Below, piece by piece: positions 1 to 18,375 of a stretch of DNA of 64,000 bases. Below the pieces are notes generated by a model that saw only the letters and a list, made by a program, of their open reading frames with translations, ran no database searches and was not told the DNA's origin. A program made the translations under genes and the position numbers. Location: positions 1,303-65,302 of the forward strand of contig JAXECZ010000062.1 of assembly GCA_034104845.1 (NCBI GenBank), written 5' to 3'. The DNA comes from Faecousia sp. Its GTDB lineage: Bacteria; Bacillota; Clostridia; Oscillospirales; Oscillospiraceae. Numbering within the stretch: position 1 is the stretch's first letter; each line of letters opens with the position of its first letter.

Positions 1-859
1 AAGGCACACGCAGAATATCCGTGTAGTTTGGAACATAAATGTCCTCCTGTTCCTTGACTACCCACTTAATTTTTTGCAAGGCACCGGTTTTTGCAAATTC
101 CGTATCGTTCTCCACAATGGTCTCAAAGTCCGCTGGCCGCTTCATGAAATGGCAGAAGTAATCAATCATCTTCCGAATCTCCGTGCCGCCATATTTGTCA
201 TCTGCTGATATTTTTGACATTGCAAAATCTGCCTGAGACAGAACGACGCCCTGAGAATTGATACGGATAAAGATGTCCGTAACCTCATCAATACTGAGGC
301 TCTGGTTCAGATCGGTTACACCGATGTTGATGTCCAGAACTTTTTTCAGCTTGCTAATCGTCTTGGAAATGGCGCTTTCCTGGCCGGTCAGTTCGTTTAT
401 CTGGCAGTAAGAAATGATAAATGGGAACTCTTCAAACGTAGCCTCAAACACCTTAGAAATGTCTGGGATCCACTTGCTGTCTTTTTCAATGGCCGGGTTG
501 CAAACTTCAAATGTCTCTGTCTGAGGATTGAAAGCAATCTTTATAGGCTTCTTTTTGTAGTTCGCATCGGTAACATACATTCCTGCAATAGCGGCCTGCA
601 ATGCAGTTACGCGCTGCTGGCCATCGATCAGGATTTTCTTTCCGATGGACATAGTTCCGTCTTTCAGGCGGACATCCGGATTCTTCCAGACGATAATGTA
701 GCCAACCGGGAAACCCTTATACAGAGAATCCAGCAGATCGCGCACCTTAGTAGAATCCCAAACAAACGGGCGCTGAATTTCAGGAATTGCGACTTCGCCA
801 GACTTAATCCAGCTTATGATATTCTGTACTGACGTGCTGTAAACATCAAACTGCGCCAT
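1..859 (-). CDS. DUF262-domain protein (GmrSD/BrxU-like type IV restriction family), N-terminal ~286 codons; the gene continues beyond the window start
   Basis: Absent from the ORF track because it runs off the edge. Reverse-strand translation from the ATG at 857-859 gives MAQFDVYSTSVQNIISWIKSGEVAIPEIQRPFVWDSTKVRDLLDSLYKGFPVGYIIVWKN...KILIDGQQRVTALQAAIAG. IPEIQRPFVW and DGQQR are the hallmark DUF262 motifs. A GGAGAGA RBS lies at 864-870. The start is 12 nt after the brxL stop. Confidence 0.75.
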   Translation of the reverse strand, partial: MAQFDVYSTSVQNIISWIKSGEVAIPEIQRPFVWDSTKVRDLLDSLYKGFPVGYIIVWKNPDVRLKDGTMSIGKKILIDGQQRVTALQAAIAGMYVTDANYKKKPIKIAFNPQTETFEVCNPAIEKDSKWIPDISKVFEATFEEFPFIISYCQINELTGQESAISKTISKLKKVLDINIGVTDLNQSLSIDEVTDIFIRINSQGVVLSQADFAMSKISADDKYGGTEIRKMIDYFCHFMKRPADFETIVENDTEFAKTGALQKIKWVVKEQEDIYVPNYTDILRVP

Positions 860-871
860 AATTTCTCTCCT

Positions 872-2995
872 TTACTCAACGCCCAATGCTTTAAATACGG
901 CATCTTCCGCACTCTGGTATGGAATCAGTTGAAATGCACTCATTAATTCCGGCGGGACAGTGGAAAAATCGATAAAAGATGTGCTTGGGATTAAAATTTT
1001 CTTTGCCCCGCTGTCCAAACAAACCTGCAACGTATTAGCCAGCTCATCCACTTTTATCATGGTCCCGCTGATTGTGATATCGCCCAAAACCACCAGGGAG
1101 CTTTGAACTGGCTTTCCCAGTGCAATAGAACATAAGGCGATCAGTGTCGGCAGTGCCAGTTTCCCGGTCATTCCGATACCCTGAAGGTCTTGATAGTTGA
1201 CGATATAATCCTTTGTCGCTGCGCTGATGGAGCCGCTGATCCGGTTGCCATTAGCCTTTAGGAAATTAAAAGCTGTATTTGTTGCTTCACGGGCATCTCT
1301 GTCAGATCCAATGCCCGTACGCTCGAACTTGCCGCTGCCCGGCAGCATCTGGCTTTCGAGGCGGAATACGCCAATCATACCACTCTTCCCACGAGATACC
1401 GTGTAGACCTGCCCGGGATTGCATATTCCTTCCGGGATCAGCTTTCCTCCACTCTGCTCTGGTACCGAGACATAATGTTCAGACATATCCTCCAAATCTA
1501 TGTAAGAGAAGTTGACGTCGTAGAACTCCATGCCGCCCAGCTTTTTCAGCTGCTCTTTTACACGACGACGCATCTCAAGTGCCAGTTTCAGTACCTCTTC
1601 CAGCTGCTCTTTGGTAAATTCACCATCCGGATACAGAAGCTTGAGATATCCGTCCACCATCTTCCGAACCGCAATGGTATCGCGTTGATTCAGGTTTCGC
1701 CCCAACCGGAAATAGTGGTCAAGGGCGTCTCCGTACTGCTCTTTGCGGAGTTCACGGATGAACTCCGCAAGATAATCGCTGATAAATCCATAATCATTGG
1801 TAAAGTGCTCCGGTCGAAACTTTGGGATCTCCCAGCCGGGAAGATAGCAGTGGATCCGATCAAGGAAGGCCGTATCCATACCCATTTCCGGCGGGAATGG
1901 ATCAAACAGGCTGCTGGTTTTCAGCAGCACATCCACGCTTTGGTTGATGTTGCCCACAAAAACCATGGAAGCAGAAGCCGCTTTTTCTTCTTTCCCGCGG
2001 GCGAAGGAACCGGAAGCCATGTAGTCCTTCATAATCTGAACGCCGTCTTTATCCTTGAATCGGATACCGGCGACCTCATCAAAGGCTACGCAGTCCCAGA
2101 GGCCAACCAACCCCACCGTCTTGCGCCCCATGTTATAAAAAAGATTTGCTACGGTTGTCTGTCCGCCAGACACAAGAATACTGTTCGGCGAGATCTCTTT
2201 GTATAGATGTGACTTGCCCGTGCTGCGGGGTCCAAGCTCACAGAGGTTGAAATTGTTCTCCACCAATGGAATCATTCTGGTCAGGAGCAGCCATTTCTCG
2301 CGTTCTGTCAATTCGTCCGGCTCCATACCGATGGAGCGAAGGAGAACGTCCATCCATTCTTCCTTTGTAAACGCCTTCCGCCCCTGCTTCAGGTCGGACA
2401 TCTCAATATGGGGCATCTGAATCGGTGTCAGTTTGCGGATCTTTATAGGGTAATCATCTGGCTTTTTCTTTTTGGACGGGATTTTCTCGCCAAACATAGA
2501 TACGGAAACAATGTTGTTCCCAAAGCCTTCCTCATCAGATGTGTATTCCAGCTGGACAATGCACCAAATACCGCCGCAAAGAAGGCGGTCAAATTTTTCC
2601 GGATACTCATCGGCGATAGGAACATTGGTCAGCCCGAGATTAGAGAAAGAAGCAAGATAACTGTTTTTCTTGATATCCAGCGTCACTGTGACCATATCAA
2701 TGACCGTATGGCTACCTCTGCTGCGAAGTTTTGACAATATTTTCTGCGCCTCATCTGGGCGCACAAAATTGTCTGCCAAAATTCGCTTCACATTCTGGAC
2801 GCCTTTTTCGATGACTTCTTCATCATCAGAGCTGCAATACTGCCCCAGAAGGAACTCGAGGACATATACGGGCACATTGGCCCCCTCTTTAATTTTCTTC
2901 GTTAAGTCTTTTCGGACAATTTTGCCGTCGAAGTTCTGACGCAGTTTGCCTTTGATTATTTCGCGGGTGCTTACGCCCTCTTCCAGTGTATCCAT
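872..2995 (-). CDS. brxL: BREX Lon protease-like protein BrxL (707 aa)
   Basis: Track ORF 872..3016 starts on a TTG. The ATG at 2995, preceded by GGAGGAGG (3001-3010), is the likelier start. It has the P-loop LGPRSTGKSHLY and a C-terminal Lon-protease-like segment (PTLIALCSIALGKPVQSSLVVLGDITISG). It is the terminal gene of the BREX cluster. Confidence 0.9.
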   Translation of the reverse strand: MDTLEEGVSTREIIKGKLRQNFDGKIVRKDLTKKIKEGANVPVYVLEFLLGQYCSSDDEEVIEKGVQNVKRILADNFVRPDEAQKILSKLRSRGSHTVIDMVTVTLDIKKNSYLASFSNLGLTNVPIADEYPEKFDRLLCGGIWCIVQLEYTSDEEGFGNNIVSVSMFGEKIPSKKKKPDDYPIKIRKLTPIQMPHIEMSDLKQGRKAFTKEEWMDVLLRSIGMEPDELTEREKWLLLTRMIPLVENNFNLCELGPRSTGKSHLYKEISPNSILVSGGQTTVANLFYNMGRKTVGLVGLWDCVAFDEVAGIRFKDKDGVQIMKDYMASGSFARGKEEKAASASMVFVGNINQSVDVLLKTSSLFDPFPPEMGMDTAFLDRIHCYLPGWEIPKFRPEHFTNDYGFISDYLAEFIRELRKEQYGDALDHYFRLGRNLNQRDTIAVRKMVDGYLKLLYPDGEFTKEQLEEVLKLALEMRRRVKEQLKKLGGMEFYDVNFSYIDLEDMSEHYVSVPEQSGGKLIPEGICNPGQVYTVSRGKSGMIGVFRLESQMLPGSGKFERTGIGSDRDAREATNTAFNFLKANGNRISGSISAATKDYIVNYQDLQGIGMTGKLALPTLIALCSIALGKPVQSSLVVLGDITISGTMIKVDELANTLQVCLDSGAKKILIPSTSFIDFSTVPPELMSAFQLIPYQSAEDAVFKALGVE

Positions 2996-3022
2996 GTTGC
3001 GTCCTCCTCCGAACAACCTTTA

Positions 3023-5623
3023 TCAAAAGAAATTGAACTCATCCACCGCAAACGCAATATCAATCTGGAATTCCTCACGCTGCGGAGCCTGAAGGCCGCT
3101 TTCATCCGCGATGACCAGATAATAGCTGTCGCGATTGCTGTATTTCTGGGAGCGCAGATTGAAACTGCAGCGGAAGGTCCTGTCCTGACCGTTTCGGCTT
3201 GTTTTGTCTGCGATGATCTTGCTTGTATCACTGATCTGCTTTCCATTGGAATCAGTAAAGTAGACCAGATAAGTGGCTGCCTCCCGATTGCCGCCCACAG
3301 CCTCTGTCTGATAGAAGTTCAGCGAGAAAATCATGTTGCTGATCTTCCGGTTGGCAGACAGCAGGTTCACCACTACCGGCTTCGTGTCGATTTTATCCCT
3401 GTTGCGCTGGTATGCTTTTGTGGACGAACGAAGATGCTGGTATTGGATCACCGGCACAACCATTTCCTGTAGACTGGCTCCGCCATGAACAAAATTAAGG
3501 CCGCCGCCGTTCATCTTGATCCGAATGTTCTCTCTTGGCGCGTACGCCTCATAGTCCGCAGCCCCATCAAGAAATTTCACCGGCATCAGATAATCCGGGC
3601 TTGTGCCTGCCTGGGTGATGGCATAGCGCCTGCCATATTCCACGGTATGCTTCGCGAAACCGGACTTGTCCACCTTGTCATCTTCCTTCAGGGGGCTGTA
3701 GGTGTACAGGAAGCCGTGATCGGCAGTCATGTAAACTCTGGTGCCGCCAAACTCATTGACGATAATGCGGACCAGATTCTTGATCTCTTCAATCGCCTCA
3801 TCACAGGCCGGGAACACAGCGCTGTCTGAGGTGTGGCTGGCTTCATCGATTTTATCGTGATAGATATACACAATGTCCATGCCCTTGACCAATGCCTGCC
3901 GGTCAGAGCGTTTCATCTTGACGATGTTCTTATACTGAAGGGCCACACTGGCCCCGTGTGCATCCTTCAAAACCTTGTCCCGGTTTGGCATTTCGGTGGG
4001 CTTGCCGTCCGCAAAAACGGCAAGACCGCCAGCAACTTTCGGCTGTACGCTTAAGGTTTTATGAGGCAGCAAAGCCGCCATACCAAATTTGGTAATGGTG
4101 GGGAAAATACCCTCACAGCTGCTCAGCTCCACCTTGCCCTGCATTTCGCGCTGAAGCTGTTCAGACAGGGAGGCAGCAACCTCATAGCGGAGCGCGTCGG
4201 AAATAATAACATAAACCTTGTTGTCGTTTCCCGCGATTCTGCCGCGATAGAATGCCGTCTGCTGCGGCACTTCCAGGATGTGTCCGTACGCCGCAAGCTG
4301 CTCAGCACAGATATCCGACCAGTTCTGTCCCAGGGAACCGAGGAACCAGTGCGTGTACAGGCCCTCTACCTTTTCCGTTACATGCTTAAACAGGTCGTCC
4401 AGCAGTGGGTTGGAAATCCGTAACGAACGTTGGAAACAAAGGTGGTACTGCCGGTAATAGCTGTCCATCTTATAATAATCGCTGGTATATTCCTTCCACA
4501 CCTTGTGCGGCTCCACCGTATGAAAACCGGCAGAGTGCTCCAGGAAGAACGCCTGCATGTTGGCAACCTGAAGAATTCCTTCATAGTAACAGGCTGTATC
4601 CGCATACCAGGCAAGTGTCCGGCGCTTTTCGACTGCCTTTTGTATGGCGTCTACATTGATGATGTGGTCGCTGATTTCCGTCATCAGCATAGTCAAGATG
4701 CATTCATTGATACAGGGGAAGCACTCCGTATCCACCAAATCCTCTGCCGCCAGCCGGCAGAACCGGTCGGGAAGCCTTGCTTCTTCCTCTACGTACCGGG
4801 CTACCTCGTAGAGCTGCCCGCAATCCTCGCTGTGAAGCCAGTCGGATACCAGATCATAACAATACGCCTGATGAGGCATAGAAAGGAAGGCATCCAGCCC
4901 TGCCAGATTGTCCTGGTGTATGGTTCTGGTGGATGCAGTCAACAAAAGATGAATCGCCAACCGTCCGAGGTTCGATTCCTCACCTTCGTTGTAGCCGGTT
5001 GCCCGTGCCACCATGGCCCAGAACGCATTCTGTGCGCCGTAGGTTACAAAGCTCTGGTAAACGCTGTTCTCCTCTATATCCAATCCGGAGCGAATGACCG
5101 CACGGATGATGCTGCCCAGCTGGGTATCGGAAATGCCGCAAAGCGCCGCCATGACAGCAAGATGCATCTGGGAAGCCGTGCTGATGTTGATGTTCAGCCT
5201 GGCCACTGCGTCACGCCGCGCCTTGGCATTGAAGAACTTCCGGTAATGCTTCACCTGCTTGCGGATAATTTGAGTAGACGGCAGGCCCATCTCATCCATC
5301 CAGATGGAATTCAGATCAGCCCGGAACTCCTCGCTGTACAGCTGCACATTGATAAGCCAGTTGTCGTCATCGCGCTGAAACGAACGGGGATCGTAAACAA
5401 GGAAGTTGTCATGGGTTCTTTCCTCGCAGAGCAGCTTCTTTACCGCAAAGGTGTTGTTCCCGGTCAGGACAATCACCTCGGCATGATTCAACTCCAGCTC
5501 GGATAGCTTGTCTTCAAACTCCCGGTCCTCATCGCGCCAGAAGATAATCCGGCGCTGGTAAAATTCTGGCAGCGGCGCCGCAAAACGGCGATTCAATTCC
5601 TGGATGATTTTATCGGTTTCCAT
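3023..5623 (-). CDS. pglZ: BREX alkaline-phosphatase-superfamily protein PglZ (866 aa)
   Basis: Track ORF 3023..5731. The internal METDKIIQELNRRFAAPLPEFYQRRIIFWRDEDREFEDKL is the typical PglZ N-terminus, giving a start at 5623. PglZ-domain core: KVYVIISDALRYEV ... MTADHGFLY. It lies between pglX and brxL. Confidence 0.9.
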   Translation of the reverse strand: METDKIIQELNRRFAAPLPEFYQRRIIFWRDEDREFEDKLSELELNHAEVIVLTGNNTFAVKKLLCEERTHDNFLVYDPRSFQRDDDNWLINVQLYSEEFRADLNSIWMDEMGLPSTQIIRKQVKHYRKFFNAKARRDAVARLNINISTASQMHLAVMAALCGISDTQLGSIIRAVIRSGLDIEENSVYQSFVTYGAQNAFWAMVARATGYNEGEESNLGRLAIHLLLTASTRTIHQDNLAGLDAFLSMPHQAYCYDLVSDWLHSEDCGQLYEVARYVEEEARLPDRFCRLAAEDLVDTECFPCINECILTMLMTEISDHIINVDAIQKAVEKRRTLAWYADTACYYEGILQVANMQAFFLEHSAGFHTVEPHKVWKEYTSDYYKMDSYYRQYHLCFQRSLRISNPLLDDLFKHVTEKVEGLYTHWFLGSLGQNWSDICAEQLAAYGHILEVPQQTAFYRGRIAGNDNKVYVIISDALRYEVAASLSEQLQREMQGKVELSSCEGIFPTITKFGMAALLPHKTLSVQPKVAGGLAVFADGKPTEMPNRDKVLKDAHGASVALQYKNIVKMKRSDRQALVKGMDIVYIYHDKIDEASHTSDSAVFPACDEAIEEIKNLVRIIVNEFGGTRVYMTADHGFLYTYSPLKEDDKVDKSGFAKHTVEYGRRYAITQAGTSPDYLMPVKFLDGAADYEAYAPRENIRIKMNGGGLNFVHGGASLQEMVVPVIQYQHLRSSTKAYQRNRDKIDTKPVVVNLLSANRKISNMIFSLNFYQTEAVGGNREAATYLVYFTDSNGKQISDTSKIIADKTSRNGQDRTFRCSFNLRSQKYSNRDSYYLVIADESGLQAPQREEFQIDIAFAVDEFNFF

Positions 5624-5891
5624 CGGTATTTCCCTCTTCCCCGGCAATTTCAACGCTGTTCCTGCCCTGCTGGGAGGTACGCTTCCTCGTCTGATATTCC
5701 AAATACAGTTCTTCGGCAAGATATTCGTCACTCATGCAGTGCAGATCGGACACGCCATCCCGAAGGAGTGGATAAACCTGCGAACCATAGAAGAAATCCA
5801 ATGCAGCGTCCAGGGAAATGCCTGCCTTTTGCGCAAAGCATTCCATCACACGGGCATATTTCTTTTGGAGCAAAATCGGGTTTGCATTCAT
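5610..5891 (-). CDS. Small helical protein, DUF3791-like (93 aa), third gene of the cassette nested in BREX
   Basis: ORF MNANPILLQKKYARVMECFAQKAGISLDAALDFFYGSQVYPLLRDGVSDLHCMSDEYLAEEL... It overlaps the upstream ORF by 4 nt (5888-5891) and the probable pglZ start by 14 nt. Confidence 0.6.
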   Translation of the reverse strand: MNANPILLQKKYARVMECFAQKAGISLDAALDFFYGSQVYPLLRDGVSDLHCMSDEYLAEELYLEYQTRKRTSQQGRNSVEIAGEEGNTDGNR

Positions 5892-6358
5892 ACCTGTTCA
5901 CTTCCTTCAAAATGCAGCTGTGCCAATGCCTTTTCCGTACGGAAACAAATTTGCAGATTTGGTTTTTCATACCGCAGACGGCTGATCGCTTCCGCTTTGT
6001 CAATCAGTCCATCAAAGAACAGTTCCACGGTATTGAACACCTTATCATTTGCCACGCCGCCGATTACGAGATCATAGTCTGTACAATCCTTTCCGCTTCG
6101 GCAGTTCAAAATAAAATCCAGCCACTGCTCGGAATAGGTATCAAATTTCAGCGTTTTCAGCCCAGCCTCCTGTGCCTCGTCGAAGGAATAGCGGGAAATA
6201 ATTCCATCTTTTCCCCTGCGCTTGAACTTGCCGCACCACTTTGCAGCCTGCTCATAAAGCGGGGTGGTATAAAATCCAAGGCCAAAATCCACATTGGGTC
6301 TGGAATGCTTCAAATCGGGATGGGGAATTTCCAGAAAAGAACCGTGATAAACGATCAT
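5888..6358 (-). CDS. DUF3990-family protein (156 aa), possible ADP-ribosyltransferase-like fold
   Basis: The N-terminus MIVYHGSFLEIPHPDLKHSRPNVDFGLGFYTTPLYEQAAKW matches my recollection of the DUF3990 signature (YHGS ... DFGxGFY). It has 4-nt overlaps with both flanking small ORFs. Confidence 0.7.
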   Translation of the reverse strand: MIVYHGSFLEIPHPDLKHSRPNVDFGLGFYTTPLYEQAAKWCGKFKRRGKDGIISRYSFDEAQEAGLKTLKFDTYSEQWLDFILNCRSGKDCTDYDLVIGGVANDKVFNTVELFFDGLIDKAEAISRLRYEKPNLQICFRTEKALAQLHFEGSEQV

Positions 6359-6591
6359 ACTTCCACACCCCTTTCCTTCATCACATCGACAAGGTCATTC
6401 ACAATGTATTCCTTGCTCTGGGTATGCAAAATCTCATATTCCGGCACAATGTATTCGTTCAGGATACGGCTCTTTTGGGTAAAGGCTTGATAGACCTGTT
6501 CCGCACCCACCCCCAGTCTGGCGGCAACATTTTCGATGCAGAATACGGCAAATTCCAATTCCCTGGAATTTTTGATGGTTCCTTCCAGCAT
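6355..6591 (-). CDS. DUF3791-family small protein (78 aa from ATG 6591; the track ORF extends to 6630)
   Basis: MLEGTIKNSRELEFAVFCIENVAARLGVGAEQVYQAFTQKSRILNEYIVPEYEILHTQSKEYIVNDLVDVMKERGVEV. The ELEF.VFCIEN..A...G and HTQSKEYIV patterns are typical of DUF3791. A GAGGAGG lies at 6602-6609. The longer version would overlap the pglX 3' end by 23 nt. Confidence 0.65.
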   Translation of the reverse strand: MLEGTIKNSRELEFAVFCIENVAARLGVGAEQVYQAFTQKSRILNEYIVPEYEILHTQSKEYIVNDLVDVMKERGVEV

Positions 6592-6607
6592 ACTGTTCCA
6601 CGCCTCC

Positions 6608-10273: not shown

Positions 10274-10287
10274 AATATATGTACCTT

Positions 10288-11097: not shown

Positions 11098-11112
11098 AAA
11101 CCTCTCCCACTC

Positions 11113-12363
11113 TTAAAAGTCCAACTTACGCTTTGCGCTTTTTACTTCTGCATTATCGGGGCCATAAAGATCAAGCATTTTTTCGTACATATCCTGTGCC
11201 ACGGTCATATTGTTATGATAATACGCATTTTCAAAGTTCTTCTTTAAAAGCTGTAACTGTTTGGGAATCCCAGAACTTCCTTGCCGAAGTTCAACAACAT
11301 CATTTATAGAGTAAGCATAGGCTTGAGAGGGGTAATCCACTTCGTGGTATTCATTAATATGAATTATTTTTGCTGTTTTACAGGAGGAAATAACAATCGG
11401 CGCATGGGTTGCAATGATAAATTGAATATTAGGGAATGTTTCTGCCAGAGCGCCAACTGCATTCCACTGCCATTTAGGATGCAAATGCATGTCGATTTCA
11501 TCAAGCAGTACAATGCCTGATGCATCCGAAGAATCCTTCATAGTAGGATTCAACTGCGCCAGACGAAATGCAAGGTCCATTGCGATCCAAAGAACAGATT
11601 GATATCCTGCACTTAGGAACGTAACGGGGAGCTCGTCATCCCCCTCTCTATAAACGATATCACGAAAAACAGAAGAATATCGAACAGAAGGATTCGTTGC
11701 AAGCTCATTCATGCTTCTCATTATTTTAGAAATGGTATTATTGAACAAATCTATTTCTTGAATTTCTGTATTCTGAAAATGCGCTTCATAAGACATTTTC
11801 ATTATCCATTCCATAATGCTGTTTTTGCTAGGAATGCCATCTAGGCTGCCAATGTAACCGCAGCGTCTGTCATTTAACTCGTTCTTTTGTTTTTTTCCAA
11901 AGTCCGCTCTCTTAGAAGAGATAACACGCGAAATGCTCATATAAGAAAGAATAGGAAGGACTGCATCTACATCGTTCGCAATATTCTGTAAATACTTCTT
12001 TGCCTCACTACCTGTTGTGAGTGACTTTCCATATCCCGAAGGATCATCTCTTCTGCGGCTACAGTAAATCATTTCTCCATCAACGTCAATTGCTAAATTA
12101 ACTCTAGGCCCAGCATATGAAATCACATTAGAGGCATTTGTTACTCTCAAAACTTTTTGGCGAAAATCATCCTTCTGAAATCCATTTGCAGGAACGCCAG
12201 GAATGCCACTTAATAGGCCGTTTAGTCCGACTGCCAAAGCTTCCAAAATAGAGGTCTTACCTGCGCCATTATCACCGATAATCAAGTTTATACCAGGATT
12301 AAATTCCAAATCGATGTTCTCAATTCCTCGGAAATCCTGAATATTTGCATCACTTAGAAACAA
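11113..12363 (-). CDS. ABC/SMC-type AAA ATPase (AAA_15/AAA_21; Septu PtuA-like), 416 aa, TTG start
   Basis: Walker A is IIGDNGAGKTSILEAL, the signature-like motif is LSAGYQS, Walker B/D-loop is IVLLDEIDMHLHPKWQ and the H-loop is IIATHAP. The in-frame codon upstream of the TTG is a stop. An AAGGAAAGG RBS lies 9 nt upstream. One 60-nt line (11701-11760) counted by hand is 27% GC. Confidence 0.7.
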   Translation of the reverse strand: MFLSDANIQDFRGIENIDLEFNPGINLIIGDNGAGKTSILEALAVGLNGLLSGIPGVPANGFQKDDFRQKVLRVTNASNVISYAGPRVNLAIDVDGEMIYCSRRRDDPSGYGKSLTTGSEAKKYLQNIANDVDAVLPILSYMSISRVISSKRADFGKKQKNELNDRRCGYIGSLDGIPSKNSIMEWIMKMSYEAHFQNTEIQEIDLFNNTISKIMRSMNELATNPSVRYSSVFRDIVYREGDDELPVTFLSAGYQSVLWIAMDLAFRLAQLNPTMKDSSDASGIVLLDEIDMHLHPKWQWNAVGALAETFPNIQFIIATHAPIVISSCKTAKIIHINEYHEVDYPSQAYAYSINDVVELRQGSSGIPKQLQLLKKNFENAYYHNNMTVAQDMYEKMLDLYGPDNAEVKSAKRKLDF

Positions 12364-12379
12364 ATTGCATCACCTTTCC

Positions 12380-12398
12380 TTGAATACTCGATATTCAA
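12380..12398 (-). promoter_or_regulatory. Perfect 7-5-7 inverted repeat TTGAATA-N5-TATTCAA next to the ATPase RBS
   Basis: Read directly: ttgaatactcgatattcaa, in the 114-nt brxC-ATPase spacer. Confidence 0.3.
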
Positions 12399-12477
12399 AA
12401 GTTTAACCACGTATCATGAAAAGAATCACTATTTTATCTCAAAAACTCAGTCATCTTTTTTACGGAATGAGCTTCCC

Positions 12478-15400
12478 TTATTTCAGCTGAATCCCATCAC
12501 AGCCCTTCATCAGCTGTTTTAGCTGCTGGCGCATTTTCTCAACATAGGCATCAATGTCCGCTTCGCTTTCCAGGCGTTTCGTCGGGAAGATGACCTGCCG
12601 ATTGTACGACTTGATAATCTTCTTCGGCGCGGGAGGTGTTGTGGTTCCGCCACTGGTATAGGTTACAGGCGGCTTCGGTTCCGGAGGTACTAACATCACC
12701 TCAATGCTGCCGCAGGCGGAATCCTTGTACTGTAGCATCGGCGGAACGAGACCATCCAGCAGAGCAAGGCTCTTCAGTTCCTTGATGGTGTCCCGCTTCT
12801 GTGTATAATACTTATCTGCCTTGTCGACAATATCTCTCGTATTGGGGTTTCCGTTTGCTGCCTGGTGGATGGCACCCATACACTGGGTTACAATCTCCAT
12901 CACTTCCTCACGCTTTGCCGCCAGCAAACGATTGTGTCCTTCCTGGACAGTTGCCATCAGGCCGTTCAACTCAGGTATGTGCTTGTAGCGAAAGCCACCG
13001 GACACCGATGTAATCAGGCGAATCTGGTTCAGCGCATGGTTTGCTTCCGGCTCATGAGAGAGGTAATCCAGCTCATTGCGCAGATCCAGCTCCATCTGGG
13101 CAGCCGCGTCAAAAATCTGCACCTGATTCTTGAAGAACCCCTCCACCTGCGCCAGACTCTCCTTGCTGTCAAAGAGGTCATCTTCCCGCTTCAGGAGACG
13201 GTCGATCAGGGCAATGTTATCCTTCTGCTGAGAAAGAATATCCGCCATCAGCTGAATCGCTTGCTGTACCTTATCCCGGTCCGGGTACTTTCTGCCGGAC
13301 TGATAGCGCTGGTCTAGGGCTTCATAATGCGCTTTCTGATCCGTGAACTTGCGGACAATAAAGGCGACCATGCCGTCCTCATTGTCCGGCACATCCATGA
13401 TGTCGAAATATTCACGCAGAAGTTCCTTCGCCGCTTTCATTTTCTGAGCAGAGACCATGTGCCGCACGGAGATACTGGTCTTGCCGATCTCGCTCTTTTT
13501 CCGCAGCATATCCGGCAGCTTCGGGTTATCCGGCTGGATGGTCGTGCCGCCATATTTGATGGTGACTTTCTGCTGCACGATCAGCAGAGCAGCCACAGCA
13601 GCCACATCGATTTCCTTCCAGCCATAGGGGATCCCCTGATAGCGGCTCTGAACGTCAGCCATGGAAGTGGGCAGCTTGATCCTGTCCTGAACAATCAGGT
13701 ATTCCTCCATCTTCGCCGCTGCATCCCGGTTCGGTTCCGTGCCAGGGATCATTTGTTCCGCGCCGGAGAGAATATTCAAAATGTCCCCATCCGTTTCCGC
13801 GTTTTTCGTAATCAGATTCAGTTCACTGTACACATGAACGACAAGATATTCCAGCGCCTGCTCGATCCTGGACTTGGCATCGCCGCTGCGAATCTCCAAA
13901 TGCTCACCATCCACATAGAACGCCGCTGCCTCGATGGCTTTTTTCAGCTGTTCCATGGCATCCTGCTCATAGCGGCTGGCTTCCTCCTGCTTGTCACGAA
14001 TGATATCCTCCACGGACTTCGGCAGCTGGGCTATGCGCTGCTTCGCATATTTGCGGATCTTCATGGCGCTTTCCAAATTCTCGTAATACAGAGAATTCGG
14101 AAGAACGACAATTGCCTGACCTCTGGACTCCGTCATGAGGCGAAGCTCGCTTTTTTCGACAGCGTCCGTTGCCACAGTCAGGAAGCGCAGCTTCATGCCG
14201 CCGGTGGAAGCGCCTGTGGTTACGCCGTCCACCATCTTGTCAAAGTCAAAATCGTATTTTCCATAGCGGAACTTTTTGGTGGTGAAGATATCTCCGTAAA
14301 TCATCTGCGCGATACGATCCACAATGGCCGCAGTATCTACGCTGGTGTTCCGTATTTCCCGCTGGATGTCCTGCTCCTCGTCGGTCAGGAAATTATAGAT
14401 ATCCCCGGACCTGCCAATATAGTTCTGGCTGAGAAGACGGTTCAGGGATTCCCTCGTTTTCTCACGGAGAGTAATTTTGTCAGTACGGATATCGTCCGCC
14501 ATCAGGATGACAATATTGTCAATGTTGGCAGGAATATCGTCCACATAGCGGATCAGATACAGGAGCTTCAGCACATCCACATCCTGGGCTTCGATACCAT
14601 CGCCGCTGTCTGCCGCTTTCTGGCAGCGCTCGATCACCCGGCGGATAGAACCATCCAGGAAGGTATGCACGGTATCATAGAAGCGGAAGAACGGCACAAG
14701 GGCATATTCATCCTCGGTCTGGATCTTCTGCGCTGCTTCCTGGAAGCCGGAAAGCATGGAACGCTCGCCGCCGGACAGGTGCTTTCCGGAATTTCCGTGT
14801 TTCCGAATCTCGGCAAAGACCTTCTGCATGACAATAAACTGATAGGGCACGAAGGGGAAGTTAACTGCAAATTCATTTGGGCCGGTGTATCCCTTGATAT
14901 CCAGAATGGAATCGGTGAAGCTGAACAGATTCCGAAGAACAGAATCATTCCGGTCGTACAGCTTCTCCAGCGCGGTTTCCGCCCCCGGCTTTTTCTTCAG
15001 AATACGCTTCTGGATCACTTCATCCACAGAGGAGGACGACAGGCTCAGCCGAGTTTTAAATCTTGCCTGAATACGGGAGAACTCATCGGCGCGAACCTTA
15101 ATGATCTCGTCAATGGCTTCCTGCCCGGTGCACACCACCCACACTTTGCCGCCGCATTCGCTGCCAATCTTCTCAGTCAGAGATTGAAGATTCAGCAGCA
15201 TATCGGTATCCGTGCCCACATACTGGCCAACTTCGTCGATCATGAACAGCAGGCGGAAGTTATCCGGCTTGCTGCCTACATAGGACTTGATGTCCTCCAC
15301 CAAACGGGCAATGGAGAACTCAACAGCCGTCTTGTCGGTAAACCAGCGCTTTGCATCCTCCTCGCTCATATCCAGGACTTCCATCAACGTTGGAATAATG

Positions 15401-16014
15401 AACTTTCCGTTGAACGCAAAGGCCTTACGCTGGTCGATCCACGGCTTGCCCTTTTTCTCCTCAAACACCCGGCGGAATTCTTCGGTTTTTCCCAGCTGGT
15501 CAATATACTGCTCCAACATGGCAACCTTCAAGTTTTCGCCATAGAAGCCCAGGTGATTGTAGAACATCTTGGCAAAAACCCGGAGCACCGCCGTTTTGTC
15601 CTTGTTGATGGAACCTTCAATATCGATATTGAACAGAATGGTTTCCGTTTTGCCCCGGGTTGCGCGGTCAATCAGCAGGAAGGTTGCCGGATCCTCCTCA
15701 AACTTCTTGCGAAACAACTCTACCGTGGTCTCGCCGTCAATCTTCCTGTTCTCCAAAATATAGGACAGCATTTTCAGGAAGTGAGATTTACCGCTTCCAA
15801 AGAACCCTGAAATCCAAACGCCAATATCGGCAGTTGGCTTTTCAAAGGCATCACTGTAATAATCAAAAAAAGAAATGAAATGCTTTTTCAGTTCGCGGGT
15901 AATGACATATTCCCGCACTTCCTGCTTGATGACATCAGTGGCATCCTGGTCAACCTTGATCACGCCGTTGATTGGACGGTTGATATCTTCGGCAAACATG
16001 TCCCGAATCAACAT
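12478..16014 (-). CDS. brxC: BREX P-loop ATPase BrxC (1178 aa)
   Basis: P-loop ISGFFGSGKSHFLKML, Walker B LFMIDEVGQYV, ~1200 aa. It starts 13 nt after brxB. Confidence 0.9.
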   Translation of the reverse strand: MLIRDMFAEDINRPINGVIKVDQDATDVIKQEVREYVITRELKKHFISFFDYYSDAFEKPTADIGVWISGFFGSGKSHFLKMLSYILENRKIDGETTVELFRKKFEEDPATFLLIDRATRGKTETILFNIDIEGSINKDKTAVLRVFAKMFYNHLGFYGENLKVAMLEQYIDQLGKTEEFRRVFEEKKGKPWIDQRKAFAFNGKFIIPTLMEVLDMSEEDAKRWFTDKTAVEFSIARLVEDIKSYVGSKPDNFRLLFMIDEVGQYVGTDTDMLLNLQSLTEKIGSECGGKVWVVCTGQEAIDEIIKVRADEFSRIQARFKTRLSLSSSSVDEVIQKRILKKKPGAETALEKLYDRNDSVLRNLFSFTDSILDIKGYTGPNEFAVNFPFVPYQFIVMQKVFAEIRKHGNSGKHLSGGERSMLSGFQEAAQKIQTEDEYALVPFFRFYDTVHTFLDGSIRRVIERCQKAADSGDGIEAQDVDVLKLLYLIRYVDDIPANIDNIVILMADDIRTDKITLREKTRESLNRLLSQNYIGRSGDIYNFLTDEEQDIQREIRNTSVDTAAIVDRIAQMIYGDIFTTKKFRYGKYDFDFDKMVDGVTTGASTGGMKLRFLTVATDAVEKSELRLMTESRGQAIVVLPNSLYYENLESAMKIRKYAKQRIAQLPKSVEDIIRDKQEEASRYEQDAMEQLKKAIEAAAFYVDGEHLEIRSGDAKSRIEQALEYLVVHVYSELNLITKNAETDGDILNILSGAEQMIPGTEPNRDAAAKMEEYLIVQDRIKLPTSMADVQSRYQGIPYGWKEIDVAAVAALLIVQQKVTIKYGGTTIQPDNPKLPDMLRKKSEIGKTSISVRHMVSAQKMKAAKELLREYFDIMDVPDNEDGMVAFIVRKFTDQKAHYEALDQRYQSGRKYPDRDKVQQAIQLMADILSQQKDNIALIDRLLKREDDLFDSKESLAQVEGFFKNQVQIFDAAAQMELDLRNELDYLSHEPEANHALNQIRLITSVSGGFRYKHIPELNGLMATVQEGHNRLLAAKREEVMEIVTQCMGAIHQAANGNPNTRDIVDKADKYYTQKRDTIKELKSLALLDGLVPPMLQYKDSACGSIEVMLVPPEPKPPVTYTSGGTTTPPAPKKIIKSYNRQVIFPTKRLESEADIDAYVEKMRQQLKQLMKGCDGIQLK

Positions 16015-16027
16015 GGTCAGTTCCTCC

Positions 16028-16585
16028 TTAAATCACATTGAACGCTCTATAATAGTCGTTCGGCTGTAGTCTGTTGAACAATTTCAGATGGTAACGGTCA
16101 AACTCTCCGGGATACATGACCAAGATCGGCACATCGGAAAAGTACGGCTGCAACGCTTCCAACAGGGTGTGTACCCGCATGAAGGGAAACGCATCTCCTA
16201 CACCGGTCAGCAGCAGCACATCTCCCAGCTTATGAGGAGAATACTGAATTTTTTCAATAAATTCATCTGTGCCAATCGCCGAGTGGAGTTGCTCCAGAAG
16301 GAATTCGCTCCCATCGGATTCTTCCATCTCCGGGATAGCATCCGTGATGTCCAGCTCATCACAGATGGAGAGAAAAATTTTATATAAATTGCATTCGATC
16401 AGTCTGCAAGGAACCCGCTGATCTGTCGTGATCTGGTCCACAAAATGCTGAACGGCCATCTCATCAGCAGGGTCGTAACAGAAAATCCGGATGTTGACTT
16501 CATTGCTTAAGCCCTTACCCTCCAGGAAGTCTGGCTCCTGAATCAACTGGCGAAGTTCATCCAGTCGTTCGTTTATGGATTTCAT
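16028..16585 (-). CDS. brxB: BREX protein BrxB (DUF1788), 185 aa
   Basis: Size and position between brxA and brxC. The sequence (..FCYDPADE..LLLTGVGDAFPFMRVHTLLEALQ..) is consistent with DUF1788. Confidence 0.85.
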   Translation of the reverse strand: MKSINERLDELRQLIQEPDFLEGKGLSNEVNIRIFCYDPADEMAVQHFVDQITTDQRVPCRLIECNLYKIFLSICDELDITDAIPEMEESDGSEFLLEQLHSAIGTDEFIEKIQYSPHKLGDVLLLTGVGDAFPFMRVHTLLEALQPYFSDVPILVMYPGEFDRYHLKLFNRLQPNDYYRAFNVI

Positions 16586-16598
16586 TTACCGCACCTCC

Positions 16599-17228
16599 TC
16601 AAGAGAAATAGTTAAATGCCGGGAATGCGATTTCGTCATGATGCTCCCGGATCGCTGTCTCAAGGACGGGATTCAGCCAAACCGGATTCAGATGATTGGC
16701 ATTGGTATCGTCCAAATACTCGTTTTCTACCAATATACGGGCAAGTACCTGTTTGATTTTTGCGATGGTATTTTCACTCCATGTGGCAACCCCATCGTCC
16801 TGCTCCTGCAAACGAAGAAAAAAAGTGTTCAAGTCAATTTTCCCAAATGAGTTGTCCCGCATTCGGTATTTCTCACCAATCACCGTAATCATGAAATCCC
16901 ATACCAACCGATACTGCTTCATCATGGCATACAGACAGATCTGCTTTGCCACGTCAGACGGCTGCCCAGCCAGAGCCGCCACGAGGGTAGTGTCATTCAT
17001 CGTCCGCAGCCGATTGATGCAGGTCTGTGCCATTTTTCGTACAGATTTTTCTGTAGGATATTGAAACAAGTTTTCTGATACAATTTTATTGACAACCGCT
17101 TTGTCGCCCAGACCATCACACATCAGTTTGGCCGTTGTACGGGTTTCATAGAATAAATACTGCTCTCTAGTCAGCACCGCACTGTACGGACTGGCCGCAC
17201 GGCGTGCTGCAATTGATTTTTCTGCCAT
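16599..17228 (-). CDS. brxA: BREX protein BrxA (DUF1819), 209 aa
   Basis: First BREX gene, ~200 aa and helical. A GGAGGT RBS lies upstream of the ATG, and it ends 13 nt before brxB. Confidence 0.85.
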   Translation of the reverse strand: MAEKSIAARRAASPYSAVLTREQYLFYETRTTAKLMCDGLGDKAVVNKIVSENLFQYPTEKSVRKMAQTCINRLRTMNDTTLVAALAGQPSDVAKQICLYAMMKQYRLVWDFMITVIGEKYRMRDNSFGKIDLNTFFLRLQEQDDGVATWSENTIAKIKQVLARILVENEYLDDTNANHLNPVWLNPVLETAIREHHDEIAFPAFNYFS

Positions 17229-17297
17229 TGGATATTACCTCCATGTGCGGAAAGGAGTCGTTACGGGGCGCCTGTCATCCATTTCCGATTTCTAACT

Positions 17298-17507
17298 TCA
17301 CATTTTGTCCGGAAGGATTTCAAGGATATCATCCACCGAACAATTCAGCGCCAGACAAATTCGAGCCACTACCTCCATGGAGACAATCTCGTCTCTTCCC
17401 ATTTTACTCAATGTACTGGCGCTGACATTTGCTAACTTGCACAGCTCTTTTTTCTTCATTTTCTTGTCGATCAGAAGCTTAAATAATTTATTATATGAAA
17501 CCGCCAT
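17298..17507 (-). CDS. XRE/Cro-type HTH transcriptional regulator (69 aa)
   Basis: Track ORF 17298..17678. The internal start MAVSYNKLFKLLIDKKMKKKELCKLANVSASTLSKMGRDEIVSMEVVARICLALNCSVDDILE is preceded by AGGAGGAGAA (17511-17520). It shows the HTH_3-like pattern and lies 69 nt upstream of brxA. Confidence 0.75.
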   Translation of the reverse strand: MAVSYNKLFKLLIDKKMKKKELCKLANVSASTLSKMGRDEIVSMEVVARICLALNCSVDDILEILPDKM

Positions 17508-17560
17508 GCTTTCTCCTCCTTGCATAGGGATGCCGATTAGAATATCAATTCTTTCTTTAT

Positions 17561-17589
17561 AGCATAACACAAATACGGACGAATGTAAA
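17561..17589 (-). promoter_or_regulatory. Candidate sigma-A promoter for the HTH/BREX operon: TTTACA-N17-TATGCT
   Basis: On the minus strand, TTTACA (17584-17589), a 17-nt spacer and TATGCT (17561-17566), about 50 nt upstream of the HTH start. Confidence 0.4.
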
Positions 17590-17701
17590 TTATTAATAAC
17601 GAGTTCTCGCAAGTTTTTAAGTATTAGGAAATCCTCGACCAATTCCAAATAAAAGGATCCTCTTTTCAAATCTCCCACATTTTGCCGTCTTTTCAGCTCG
17701 C

Positions 17702-18283: not shown

Positions 18284-18375
18284 AAATATATTATGATACT
18301 CTCAAAAGTTTCCTTTGTAACGCATCAAACCGGGAAATCTGAGGAATAGGCAAATCTCCCGAAGTCTGTCTTTTT

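What the first reader, a model, noticed from the sequence alone, without database searches (positions are those of the whole stretch)
1..17590. One ~17.5-kb co-directional unit: HTH + BREX type 1 + two nested modules + a trailing DUF262 gene
All 14 genes lie on the minus strand, with very short junctions. In nt these are: brxA-brxB 13, brxB-brxC 13, ATPase-HNH 15, HNH-pglX 14, pglX-DUF3791 16 (or a 23-nt overlap), overlaps of -4, -4 and -14 through the cassette, pglZ-brxL 27 and brxL-DUF262 12. I saw no terminator-like hairpin inside. Four mechanistically different modules therefore appear to share one promoter region (17561-17589): methylation-based BREX, an ATPase/HNH pair, a putative ART-like cassette and a GmrSD-like enzyme. 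Nesting at two different internal junctions of BREX is unusual, and it raises the question of functional coupling versus hitch-hiking.
Basis: partly seen in the sequence, partly recalled or inferred. Interest (0 to 1): 0.7.

Follow-up and report, generated by a model that had tools for sequence, protein, structure and literature searches.

The report
BREX locus with embedded defence modules
This is a complete type 1 BREX phage-defence locus from a gut Clostridia bacterium, with a Septu system and an uncharacterised ART-like cassette inserted at two internal junctions; those junctions are commonly occupied in related loci, so it is a good but ordinary example of a known pattern.

Summary
There are 13 genes, not 14. 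Two longer gaps were left out: 114 nt between brxC and ptuA, and 69 nt between HTH and brxA. The last gene is cut by the window edge.

The modules are:
- BREX type 1, all six core genes.
- Septu (PtuA/PtuB).
- PADLOC candidate PDC-M13 (DUF3791-DUF3990-DUF3791; DUF3990 has an ART fold closest to RES/ParT/MbcT toxins).
- A BrxU/GmrSD-like enzyme.

Nesting at two junctions is not unusual. Among 80 PglX-related loci, brxC-pglX is occupied in 28/77, pglX-pglZ in 53/67 and both in 22/67. The other internal junctions are almost never occupied. The cargo is diverse and nearly always co-directional.

The nearest Septu relative (69% PtuA identity) stands alone. The M13 cassette (about 84% identity) also sits on conjugative or mobilisable elements. 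This favours autonomous hitch-hikers at permissive hotspots, as Payne et al. 2024 described.

A promoter upstream of the HTH gene is supported by positional conservation. A single promoter for everything is plausible but untested: the Salmonella analogue has internal transcription start sites.

Verdict: a new member of a known kind, of modest interest.

The parts
17561..17589 (-). Promoter-like site (TTTACA-17-TATGCT, TG-extended) 53 nt upstream of the HTH start codon
   Evidence: Found by the consensus scan. Equivalent sites end 45-67 nt before the HTH ATG in 35/51 related loci. No experimental evidence.
17298..17507 (-). Leader gene: 69-aa XRE/Cro-type HTH (HTH_26), probable regulator
   Evidence: Pfam HTH_26 at 1e-16. 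ATG 17507 has RBS AAGGAGGAG. Called as 69 aa on identical contigs. A homologue sits just upstream of brxA in 53 of 80 related loci.
16599..17228 (-). brxA
   Evidence: Pfam BrxA 3e-60.
16028..16585 (-). brxB
   Evidence: Pfam BrxB 9.5e-37.
12478..16014 (-). brxC (1178 aa ATPase)
   Evidence: Pfam BrxC 4th, wHTH and helical domains.
12364..12477 (-). 114-nt AT-rich spacer between brxC and ptuA; holds a weak promoter-like match at 12442..12413 and no terminator
   Evidence: The spacer is not conserved with the upstream region of the nearest stand-alone Septu.
11113..12363 (-). ptuA: Septu ABC-type ATPase (TTG start, Walker A GDNGAGKT)
   Evidence: PADLOC PtuA 3.9e-113 over the full length; Pfam AAA_15/AAA_21/SMC_N. 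GC3 is 0.35 against 0.65 in the flanking brxC.
10288..11097 (-). ptuB: Septu HNH nuclease partner
   Evidence: PADLOC PtuB 2e-31, no Pfam hit. CAYC...IEH motif seen in the sequence. GC3 0.40.
6608..10273 (-). pglX: BREX N6-adenine methyltransferase (NPPY at residue 512); its middle part, 7706-9517, varies between strains
   Evidence: PADLOC PglX 1440 bits; Pfam Eco57I. The middle part is replaced or diverged in contigs with identical BrxL. GC3 is 0.45 there against 0.68-0.69 in the flanks.
6355..6591 (-). PDC-M13A: DUF3791 small protein (78 aa from Met14 of the longer ORF 6355..6630)
   Evidence: Pfam DUF3791 4e-22; PADLOC PDC-M13A 2.6e-38, aligned from residue 14. Called as 78 aa in relatives.
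5888..6358 (-). PDC-M13B: DUF3990, an ART-fold protein and putative toxin/effector
   Evidence: Pfam DUF3990 3.9e-52; PADLOC PDC-M13B 4.3e-70. The AF2 model (pLDDT 85.5) is nearest to RES, ParT and MbcT toxins and to PARPs.
5610..5891 (-). PDC-M13C: divergent DUF3791-like small protein; overlaps the pglZ start by 14 nt
   Evidence: PADLOC PDC-M13C 1.1e-37; Pfam DUF3791 4.6e-5, below cutoff.
3023..5623 (-). pglZ
   Evidence: Pfam PglZ 1.3e-50.
872..2995 (-). brxL (Lon-like)
   Evidence: Pfam BrxL_N, BrxL_ATPase and Lon_C; PADLOC BrxL 1101 bits.
1..859 (-). 5' part (286 of 599 codons) of a GmrSD/BrxU-like type IV restriction gene, cut by the window edge
   Evidence: Pfam GmrSD_N 2.3e-32; PADLOC HEC-05 8.8e-30; DGQQR motif. 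Full length seen on 99.5%-identical contigs.
18219..18287 (+). 3' fragment of tRNA-Pro(UGG), then a perfect 17-bp hairpin; marks the edge of the block shared with a Faecousia MAG
   Evidence: The exact 28 nt equals the 3' end of tRNA-Pro(TGG) in three phage tRNA arrays. No full tRNA is called. L009 is 99.3% identical up to 18287 and unrelated beyond.

Best explanation
The region is a complete type 1 BREX system led by a small XRE-type HTH gene. Three other defence modules have joined it at positions where foreign genes are tolerated.

- Septu (PtuA ATPase + PtuB HNH nuclease) lies between brxC and pglX.
- The three-gene candidate system PDC-M13 lies between pglX and pglZ. It is an ART-fold DUF3990 protein flanked by two small DUF3791 proteins, an arrangement like a toxin with antitoxin or regulator partners.
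- A BrxU/GmrSD-like type IV restriction enzyme follows brxL.

The embedded modules are autonomous systems that hitch-hike. They are inserted in the same orientation, with stop-RBS-start spacing, so that expression of the downstream BREX genes is kept. They gain co-transfer with BREX and probably co-expression with it.

Transcription most likely starts at a conserved promoter upstream of the HTH gene and reads through the cargo. Additional internal starts are likely but not shown, for example in the 114-nt spacer before ptuA or inside coding sequence ahead of pglZ.

Functionally the locus gives layered defence:
- BREX: methylation-based exclusion.
- BrxU-like enzyme: cleavage of modified phage DNA.
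- Septu: ATPase/HNH nuclease attack.
- PDC-M13: probably NAD-dependent toxicity (abortive infection).

Status of each step:
- Shown here: gene identities, spacing, junction statistics and contexts elsewhere.
- Inferred: co-transcription, autonomy in this host and the M13 mechanism.
For: - All six BREX core genes, PtuA/PtuB, PDC-M13A/B/C and HEC-05 are hit strongly.
- Junction occupancy (gap over 300 nt) in PglX-related loci chosen without regard to cargo: brxC-pglX 28/77, pglX-pglZ 53/67, brxA-brxB 0/67, brxB-brxC 1/69, pglZ-brxL 3/47, both hotspots 22/67.
- Cargo is diverse and nearly always co-directional. It includes Septu, PDC-M13, PDC-M14, PDC-S02, bSEFIR, PDC-S14, PDC-S25 and a Schlafen-like gene.
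- Septu in other loci is only 30-43% identical to this one, while the flanking BrxC is 65-75% identical. That implies repeated independent acquisitions.
- Septu GC3 is 0.35-0.40 against 0.65 for brxC and pglZ.
- The nearest PtuA relative (69%) belongs to a stand-alone Septu beside housekeeping genes.
- The M13 cassette at 83-84% identity sits on ICE/IME-like elements without BREX, and also in other BREX loci.
- In empty loci the brxC stop codon forms part of the pglX RBS. Occupied loci recreate the same compact junction.
- The promoter position upstream of HTH is conserved.
Against: - There are no transcript data, so read-through is inferred from spacing only. Promoter-like hits overall are not enriched (33 against 24.3 +/- 5.1).
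- No close relative lacks any module. All 19 contigs with the identical PtuA and 7 of the 8 places shown for the identical BrxL carry the same set; the eighth, L081, has an HTH/serine-recombinase element upstream of pglX in place of brxC and Septu, but still carries PDC-M13 and the GmrSD-like gene. Recent gain or loss is therefore not seen directly.
- Septu at brxC-pglX together with DUF3791-type genes at pglX-pglZ recurs in several BREX lineages (L019, L053, L063, L101-L105), which could hint at coupling.
- PDC-M13 has no published functional test.
Confidence: 0.75

Rival explanations
1. Functional coupling. The embedded modules are BREX-dedicated accessory or backup effectors. For example, they might be triggered when a phage anti-BREX protein disables BREX, or they might sense BREX-generated DNA nicks. 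On this view their position inside the locus reflects a mechanistic dependence on BREX proteins.
For: - The M13C gene overlaps the pglZ start by 14 nt, and the cassette genes overlap each other by 4 nt, which suggests translational coupling into pglZ.
- The Septu + DUF3791/DUF3990 combination recurs in distinct BREX lineages.
- The literature proposes backup-effector roles and gives the Ocr-triggered PARIS example.
Against: - The same cassette families occur outside BREX: a stand-alone Septu at 69% identity, and M13 on ICE/IMEs at 84% identity.
- Cargo at both junctions is highly diverse.
- Septu is more often found at brxC-pglX (4 loci) but also at pglX-pglZ (2 loci).
- According to Payne et al., only 0.7% of Septu systems are embedded in Hma.
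- In Salmonella the embedded genes are not needed for methylation.
Confidence: 0.15
2. Independent transcription units. Each module has its own promoter, and termination is effective, so the tight packing is only genome economy. Co-orientation would then simply reflect the strong strand bias of this chromosome region.
For: - A 114-nt AT-rich spacer with a weak promoter-like match precedes ptuA.
- Most coding sequence of the whole window is on the same strand.
- Salmonella LT2 BREX has internal transcription start sites and a terminator after brxC.
- B. cereus BREX has two operons split at pglX|pglZ.
Against: - Gaps of 12-27 nt and overlaps leave no room for terminator-promoter pairs between most genes.
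- No terminator-like structure exceeds chance, and the spacer is unstructured.
- Occupied junctions recreate the stop-RBS-start geometry of empty ones.
- No promoter-like hit was found in the M13 cassette or the 3' end of pglX.
Confidence: 0.15
3. This rival concerns the M13 cassette only. It would not be a phage-defence system but a toxin-antitoxin/addiction module, or an anti-defence cargo of mobile elements, that has landed in BREX and stabilises the locus.
For: - The DUF3990 model is closest to toxins of Xre-RES, ParST and MbcTA toxin-antitoxin systems.
- The small flanking genes overlap it by 4 nt, which is typical toxin-antitoxin architecture.
- The cassette is common on ICE/IME-like elements next to ParB, TnpV, relaxase and serine recombinase genes.
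- It is very conserved, at 80-87% identity across the top 120 of 3042 hits.
- No functional test has been published.
Against: - It was listed as a defence candidate because it is repeatedly embedded in BREX, DISARM or type I RM systems.
- In L089 it sits beside a 2052-aa DUF4011 helicase-type gene, which may be defence-related.
- Toxin-antitoxin and abortive-infection roles do not exclude each other.
Confidence: 0.25

Closest known systems
Salmonella Typhimurium LT2 StySA BREX with an embedded ATPase (STM4493) + DUF4435 (STM4494) pair between pglX and pglZ (PMC9009780)
   Same: Type 1 BREX with a foreign two-gene ATPase module nested at the pglX-pglZ junction. The module is co-directional and was acquired later than the core.
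   Different: Only one junction is occupied there, and the cargo family differs (PARIS-like rather than Septu or M13). Transcription has been mapped there (internal start sites, a terminator after brxC) but not here. That host is a Proteobacterium and that island sits at a tRNA-Leu (leuX) site.
pEFER (Escherichia fergusonii) BREX with BrxU, and the HEC-05 family (Picton et al. 2021 as cited in bioRxiv 10.1101/2024.01.29.577857)
   Same: A GmrSD-like DUF262 type IV enzyme genetically attached to type 1 BREX. It gives complementary targeting of modified DNA.
   Different: Here the gene trails brxL rather than being embedded. The match to HEC-05 profiles is partial (1e-32, N-terminal stretches). 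Pfam does not recognise the C-terminal nuclease domain in the full-length homologue.
[quoted passage not shown] 2024 preprint)
   Same: The same architecture, with autonomous systems nested between core genes on the same strand. Septu is their founding example (in Hma). PDC-M13 is one of their 145 candidates.
   Different: This locus carries three extra modules at once in a gut Oscillospiraceae-like genome. The junction-by-junction occupancy figures reported here come from my own sample of 80 loci.
Septu type I (PtuA/PtuB; Doron et al. 2018, from my own knowledge)
   Same: An ABC-type ATPase with a Walker A motif, followed 15 nt later by an HNH nuclease. The PtuA profile matches over the full length.
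   Different: It is embedded rather than stand-alone. It is only 69% identical to its nearest relative found and 30-43% identical to other BREX-embedded Septu systems.
Xre-RES, ParS-ParT and MbcA-MbcT toxin-antitoxin systems (PDB 9r35, 8gug, 6d0i, 6fkg)
   Same: A small ART-fold protein encoded next to small partner proteins with overlapping genes.
   Different: The structural match is weak (E 3e-3, TM about 0.5, 7-8% identity). There are two flanking DUF3791 partners instead of one Xre-type antitoxin. No NADase or ADP-ribosylation activity has been shown.

Membership tests
BREX type 1 | Six core genes brxA, brxB, brxC, pglX, pglZ and brxL on one strand in canonical order | tested here: met
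   Pfam and PADLOC hits for all six, in that order.
BREX type 1 | PglX is an N6-adenine methyltransferase with the NPPY catalytic motif | tested here: met
   Pfam Eco57I/MmeI_Mtase hits; NPPY at residue 512.
BREX type 1 | Site-specific adenine methylation of host DNA and exclusion of unmethylated phage | not testable with these tools
   Needs methylome sequencing and phage assays.
Septu (PtuAB) | PtuA ABC/AAA_15-type ATPase with Walker A | tested here: met
   PADLOC PtuA 3.9e-113 over residues 1-415 of 423; GDNGAGKT at residue 30.
Septu (PtuAB) | An adjacent PtuB HNH endonuclease | tested here: met
   PADLOC PtuB 2e-31 and HNH_I-A 4e-25, 15 nt downstream. Pfam finds nothing. The CAYC...IEH motif was seen by eye.
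PADLOC candidate PDC-M13 | Three consecutive genes matching the PDC-M13A, -B and -C profiles | tested here: met
   2.6e-38, 4.3e-70 and 1.1e-37 respectively, in that order, with 4-nt overlaps.
PADLOC candidate PDC-M13 | Demonstrated anti-phage activity | not testable with these tools
   Only one paper in the library, a rumen survey, mentions PDC-M13, and I did not read it; no functional test turned up.
ADP-ribosyltransferase (ART) superfamily | ART fold | tested here: inconclusive
   Pfam DUF3990 is listed in the ART clan. The best AF2 model has pLDDT 85.5, but the other four models are poor. Foldseek top hits are all ART-fold toxins or PARPs, but they are weak (best E 3e-3, TM about 0.5).
ADP-ribosyltransferase (ART) superfamily | Catalytic motif (H-Y-E or R-S-E) placed at the NAD+ pocket | tested here: inconclusive
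   Y4-H5-G6-S7 is invariant, as are several Y and E residues. I did not map them onto an NAD-bound template.
GmrSD / BrxU (HEC-05) type IV restriction | N-terminal DUF262 domain with the DGQQR motif | tested here: met
   Pfam GmrSD_N 2.3e-32; DGQQR at residue 79.
GmrSD / BrxU (HEC-05) type IV restriction | C-terminal DUF1524 His-Me finger nuclease domain | tested here: inconclusive
   This part lies outside the window. In the 599-aa homologue (285/286 identical over the shared part) Pfam detects only GmrSD_N. A DIHHIFPK motif is visible by eye near the C-terminus.
Embedded defence architecture (Payne et al.) | Cargo genes lie between core genes of a multi-gene defence system, on the same strand, and homologues also occur outside it | tested here: met
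   Septu and M13 lie between BREX core genes.

The most novel reading that the evidence does not exclude
The ART-fold PDC-M13 cassette might not be a mere passenger. It could be wired into BREX expression or function. Its last gene overlaps the pglZ start, so PglZ/BrxL synthesis may depend on translation of the cassette. The DUF3990 toxin could then act as an NAD-consuming abortive backup, released when a phage blocks BREX. Its recurrent pairing with Septu at the other junction would mark a co-selected three-layer unit.
Probability: 0.12. Interest if true: 0.6.

Novelty: new member of a known kind. Interest (0 to 1): 0.3.

Why it matters
The general phenomenon, defence systems nested inside BREX, is already published, and each module is in PADLOC. 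The locus therefore adds no new kind of system.

Its value is as a compact natural test case. Four or five mechanistically different defences sit in about 20 kb of a poorly studied gut Oscillospiraceae lineage.

The comparative data give a clear and testable picture. Only two BREX junctions accept cargo: brxC|pglX and pglX|pglZ. The second is the operon boundary in B. cereus. Cargo is re-fitted to preserve the stop-RBS-start geometry.

The least understood component is the very widespread and highly conserved DUF3791-DUF3990-DUF3791 cassette (over 3000 homologues). It has an ART fold and no experimental characterisation, which makes it a reasonable target for functional work.

Tried and rejected
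- **Plasmid database, near mode:** only a 359-nt, 75% brxL match in Vibrio plasmids, so the region is not a known plasmid.
- **Rfam:** nothing over 1-20 kb at gathering threshold. The permissive search near 18.2 kb returned only hairpin look-alikes.
- **Full tRNA next to the unit:** ARAGORN finds none, only a 3' fragment.
- **ptuB pseudogene idea:** a 183-aa call appears in some relatives, but there is no frameshift, only a different start choice.
- **Operator-like inverted repeats:** none of 10 nt or more in the HTH promoter region or the ptuA spacer.
- **Conserved promoter travelling with Septu:** the upstream regions of the window and of the nearest stand-alone Septu do not align meaningfully.
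- **Terminator in the 114-nt spacer:** fold z-score 0.06.
- **PDB sequence search with DUF3990:** nothing.
- **DUF3791 (M13A):** the single-sequence AF2 model (4 helices, pLDDT 73) finds no meaningful PDB neighbour.
- **Close relatives lacking one module ('empty sites'):** no true empty site was found. All 19 contigs with the identical PtuA and 7 of the 8 places shown for the identical BrxL carry the same module set; the exception is L081, where an HTH/serine-recombinase element takes the place of brxC and Septu upstream of pglX.
- **Septu/M13 association:** Septu at brxC-pglX tends to occur with DUF3791 genes at pglX-pglZ, but the numbers are too small and the loci are not independent, so I do not claim it.

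Full report
**1. What is in the sequence**

Thirteen minus-strand genes fill window 1-17507. In order of transcription they are:

| Gene | Coordinates | Notes |
|---|---|---|
| XRE/Cro-type HTH | 17298-17507 | 69 aa from the ATG with RBS AAGGAGGAG; the 126-aa maximal ORF is probably too long |
| brxA | 16599-17228 | |
| brxB | 16028-16585 | |
| brxC | 12478-16014 | |
| ptuA | 11113-12363 | |
| ptuB | 10288-11097 | |
| pglX | 6608-10273 | |
| DUF3791 | 6355-6591 | |
| DUF3990 | 5888-6358 | |
| second DUF3791-like gene | 5610-5891 | |
| pglZ | 3023-5623 | |
| brxL | 872-2995 | |
| DUF262 gene, first 286 codons | 1-859 | runs off the window |

Pfam and PADLOC identify these genes as follows:
- All six BREX type 1 core proteins are present.
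- The ATPase/HNH pair is Septu: PtuA 3.9e-113 over the full profile, PtuB 2e-31.
- The three small genes are the PADLOC candidate system PDC-M13A/B/C (2.6e-38, 4.3e-70, 1.1e-37).
- The last gene is GmrSD_N / HEC-05, the family that contains BrxU.

Motifs read directly from the sequence: Walker A GDNGAGKT in PtuA, CAYC...IEH in PtuB, NPPY in PglX and DGQQR in the DUF262 protein.

**2. Check of the observation**

- The count of 14 genes does not; I find 13.
- Two junctions were left out, and they are the longest. brxC-ptuA is 114 nt, AT-rich, with a weak promoter-like match TTGAGA-18-CATGAT at 12442..12413. HTH-brxA is 69 nt.
- Terminator-like hits inside the unit are at chance level (20 against 17.7 +/- 4.7), weak and within coding sequence.
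- The 114-nt spacer has no structure beyond shuffles, z = 0.06.
- The promoter-like site at 17589..17561 exists (9/12 matches, TG-extended). With the corrected HTH start it ends 53 nt upstream of the gene.
- Its position is conserved. Across related loci, the best sigma-70-like match upstream of the HTH homologue ends 45-67 nt before the ATG in 35 of 51 cases. The binomial p is 2e-13 against a uniform position, although the loci are not independent.
- Co-directionality is weak evidence for an operon here, because most coding sequence in the whole 64-kb window is on the minus strand.

**3. Is double nesting unusual? No**

I fetched 80 genome loci encoding relatives of this PglX (49-65% identity, apart from one near-identical MAG). 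They were chosen without regard to cargo. I mapped the window's proteins onto them.

| Junction | Loci with a gap over 300 nt |
|---|---|
| brxC-pglX | 28 of 77 |
| pglX-pglZ | 53 of 67 |
| brxA-brxB | 0 of 67 |
| brxB-brxC | 1 of 69 |
| pglZ-brxL | 3 of 47 |

Both hotspots are occupied in 22 of 67 loci and neither in 12.

The cargo is almost always on the BREX strand and is diverse:
- Septu: four times at brxC-pglX, twice at pglX-pglZ.
- PDC-M13.
- PDC-M14: nine loci.
- PDC-S02 (DUF1016 nuclease).
- bSEFIR.
- PDC-S14.
- PDC-S25 (SIR2).
- Several unannotated small proteins.
- A roughly 490-aa Schlafen(AlbA_2)/HATPase/wHTH protein directly before pglZ in about 25 loci.

A DUF262 gene follows brxL directly in L041, L044 and L051. 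L019, and the P0033 lineage (L101-L105), show the same Septu-then-pglX-then-M13 layout as the window.

The literature already describes this:
- Payne et al. [quoted passage not shown] They derived the PDC candidates from that observation, Septu embedded in Hma was their starting point, and HEC-05 is BrxU.
- Salmonella LT2 BREX carries an ATPase/DUF4435 pair between pglX and pglZ.
- A 2026 NAR survey describes nuclease, HNH/GmrSD and Schlafen 'backup effectors' inside BREX loci.

**4. Hitch-hiking or coupling**

Several lines favour autonomous passengers:
- *Composition.* Septu has GC3 of 0.35-0.40. brxC and pglZ have 0.65, and the pglX ends 0.68-0.69.
- *Divergence.* BREX-embedded Septu systems in other loci are only 30-43% identical to this one, although their BrxC is 65-75% identical. 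The junction has therefore been filled repeatedly and independently.
- *Contexts elsewhere, Septu.* The nearest PtuA outside this lineage (69%) belongs to a stand-alone PtuAB pair between IMPDH and a two-component system, near dnaA. A 52% relative sits in another BREX locus.
- *Contexts elsewhere, M13.* The DUF3990 protein has 3042 homologues, and the top 120 are 80-87% identical. The DUF3791-DUF3990-small-gene cassette at 83-84% identity lies on ICE/IME-like elements with ParB, TnpV, a large serine recombinase, relaxase and NikA/MobC. No BREX is nearby.
- *Junction geometry.* In empty loci the brxC stop codon is part of the pglX RBS (…TAAGGAGACGAGT-ATG). Occupied loci recreate a stop-RBS-ATG junction at the cargo's 3' end. 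This fits selection to keep the downstream BREX genes expressed through the insert.

Points in favour of coupling are weaker:
- The 14-nt overlap of M13C with pglZ.
- The recurrence of Septu together with DUF3791-type genes.
- No close strain lacks a module. All 19 contigs with the identical PtuA and 7 of the 8 places shown for the identical BrxL carry the same set. The eighth, L081, has an HTH/serine-recombinase element in place of brxC and Septu upstream of pglX (see section 7).

**5. The M13 cassette**

- DUF3990 belongs to Pfam's ART clan.
- An AF2 model gave pLDDT 85.5 and pTM 0.81 for the best model, but the other four models were poor.
- Foldseek against the PDB returns only weak hits, best E 3e-3 with TM about 0.5. 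The top hits are consistently ART-fold proteins: RES toxins of Xre-RES systems, VPA0770, ParT, MbcT, then PARPs and exotoxin A.
- With 4-nt overlaps to small flanking genes, the layout is that of a toxin with partner proteins.
- I infer an NAD-dependent toxin/abortive module. This has not been shown, and I found no functional study of it.
- The DUF3791 model (pLDDT 73, four helices) has no informative structural neighbour.

**6. One promoter?**

The sequence cannot decide this.

For read-through:
- Gaps of 12-27 nt or overlaps at nearly all junctions.
- No terminators.
- A positionally conserved promoter upstream of the HTH leader.

Against a strict single-promoter model:
- The 114-nt spacer before ptuA.
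- Experimental precedents. Salmonella LT2 BREX shows a start site upstream of brxC, a terminator after brxC, a start within pglX for the embedded ATPase, and a start inside the end of DUF4435 that drives pglZ-brxL.
- B. cereus BREX has two operons split exactly at pglX|pglZ, while Acinetobacter BREX is one transcript from upstream of brxR.

The pglX|pglZ hotspot thus coincides with a known operon boundary. That may explain why it is the most permissive junction.

**7. Surroundings and extent**

- Contigs 99.5% identical to the window (L084, L086) show that the DUF262 protein is 599 aa. Pfam sees only GmrSD_N in it; an HHIFPK motif near the C-terminus is visible by eye.
- After a 162-nt gap with no detectable terminator come co-directional DUF3427 and ResIII-helicase genes. 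These match PADLOC's type IV methyl-directed restriction model. The defence array therefore extends past the window edge.
- Upstream of the unit lies a 3' fragment of tRNA-Pro(UGG) at 18219-18246, followed by a perfect 17-bp hairpin. This marks the point (18287) where a 99.3%-identical Faecousia MAG contig (L009) stops matching the window. I read this as an island boundary at a former tRNA integration site.
- The host is most likely a gut Oscillospiraceae (Faecousia-like) bacterium.

**8. Verdict**

The claim of unusualness is not supported. The coupling-versus-hitch-hiking question is legitimate but is already framed in the literature, and the comparative evidence here favours hitch-hiking at two permissive hotspots. 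The locus is a new member of a known kind. The uncharacterised, very widespread ART-fold cassette is its most interesting component.

Noticed in passing
L081:965-6388 (junction corresponds to window 10240): One metagenome contig has BrxL identical to the window's. On it, an HTH gene and a large serine recombinase (Resolvase/Recombinase/Zn_ribbon) precede pglX, and the recombinase ORF runs in frame into pglX at codon 12. brxABC and Septu are not on the 10-kb flank. This looks like a mobile element integrated into the 5' end of the BREX methyltransferase gene, which would inactivate BREX, but it could be an assembly chimera.
   Followed up: partly
window 7706-9517 (pglX residues ~253-856): The middle of pglX has low GC3 (0.45 against 0.68 in the flanks). 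It is replaced or strongly diverged between strains whose BrxL is identical (PglX of 1221, 1229 or 1240 aa). Several metagenome contigs break there. This probably reflects exchange of the target-recognition region between strains.
   Followed up: partly
window 18219-18287: A 3' fragment of tRNA-Pro(UGG), without the 5' half, is followed by a perfect 17-bp hairpin. A 99.3%-identical Faecousia MAG contig (L009) matches the window up to 18287 and is unrelated beyond. This is a likely boundary of an integrated island. The other end was not found within 10 kb past brxL.
   Followed up: partly
window 18377-19679 vs L082:18535-20885, L083, L084:19123-19519: The GDSL lipase, DUF2200 and DUF5655 genes lie upstream of the BREX unit in the window. 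Copies 83-89% identical, in the same orientation, lie about 6-8 kb downstream of brxL on near-identical contigs. The island may be flanked by diverged direct repeats, as a Campbell-type integration would give, or strains may be rearranged. Unexplained.
   Followed up: no
beyond window start; L084:14099-17736: After the GmrSD-like gene, near-identical contigs carry co-directional DUF3427 and ResIII/SWI2-SNF2 helicase genes, with two small genes between them. Both match PADLOC's type IV methyl-directed restriction enzyme model, as if it were split. This would be a further defence module in the same array.
   Followed up: partly
window 20714-32623 (-): A single 3969-aa ORF with at least 11 Listeria-Bacteroides (Flg_new) repeats, preceded by an S8 subtilase gene. 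It is probably a giant surface protein.
   Followed up: no
related loci, e.g. L005:14637-16178, L010, L022, L026, L071: A roughly 490-515-aa Schlafen(AlbA_2)/HATPase_c_4/wHTH protein sits immediately upstream of pglZ in about 25 of 67 related BREX loci. It is absent from the window. It matches the Schlafen-kinase-wHTH 'backup effector' described in PMC12839542.
   Followed up: partly
L089-L093:5476-6692: Outside BREX, the DUF3791-DUF3990-small-gene cassette is preceded by a 72-aa HTH_26 gene and followed by a 2052-aa DUF4011/AAA_11/AAA_12/MTES_1575 helicase-nuclease gene. This sits on an element with ParB and TnpV. HTH_26 is the same HTH family that leads the BREX unit in the window.
   Followed up: no
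window 10852-10854 (PtuB residue 82): PtuB has His at residue 82 in the window (IEHDGD) but Asn in all four close relatives checked (IENDGD). The residue lies just downstream of the CAYC motif. Its significance is unknown.
   Followed up: no
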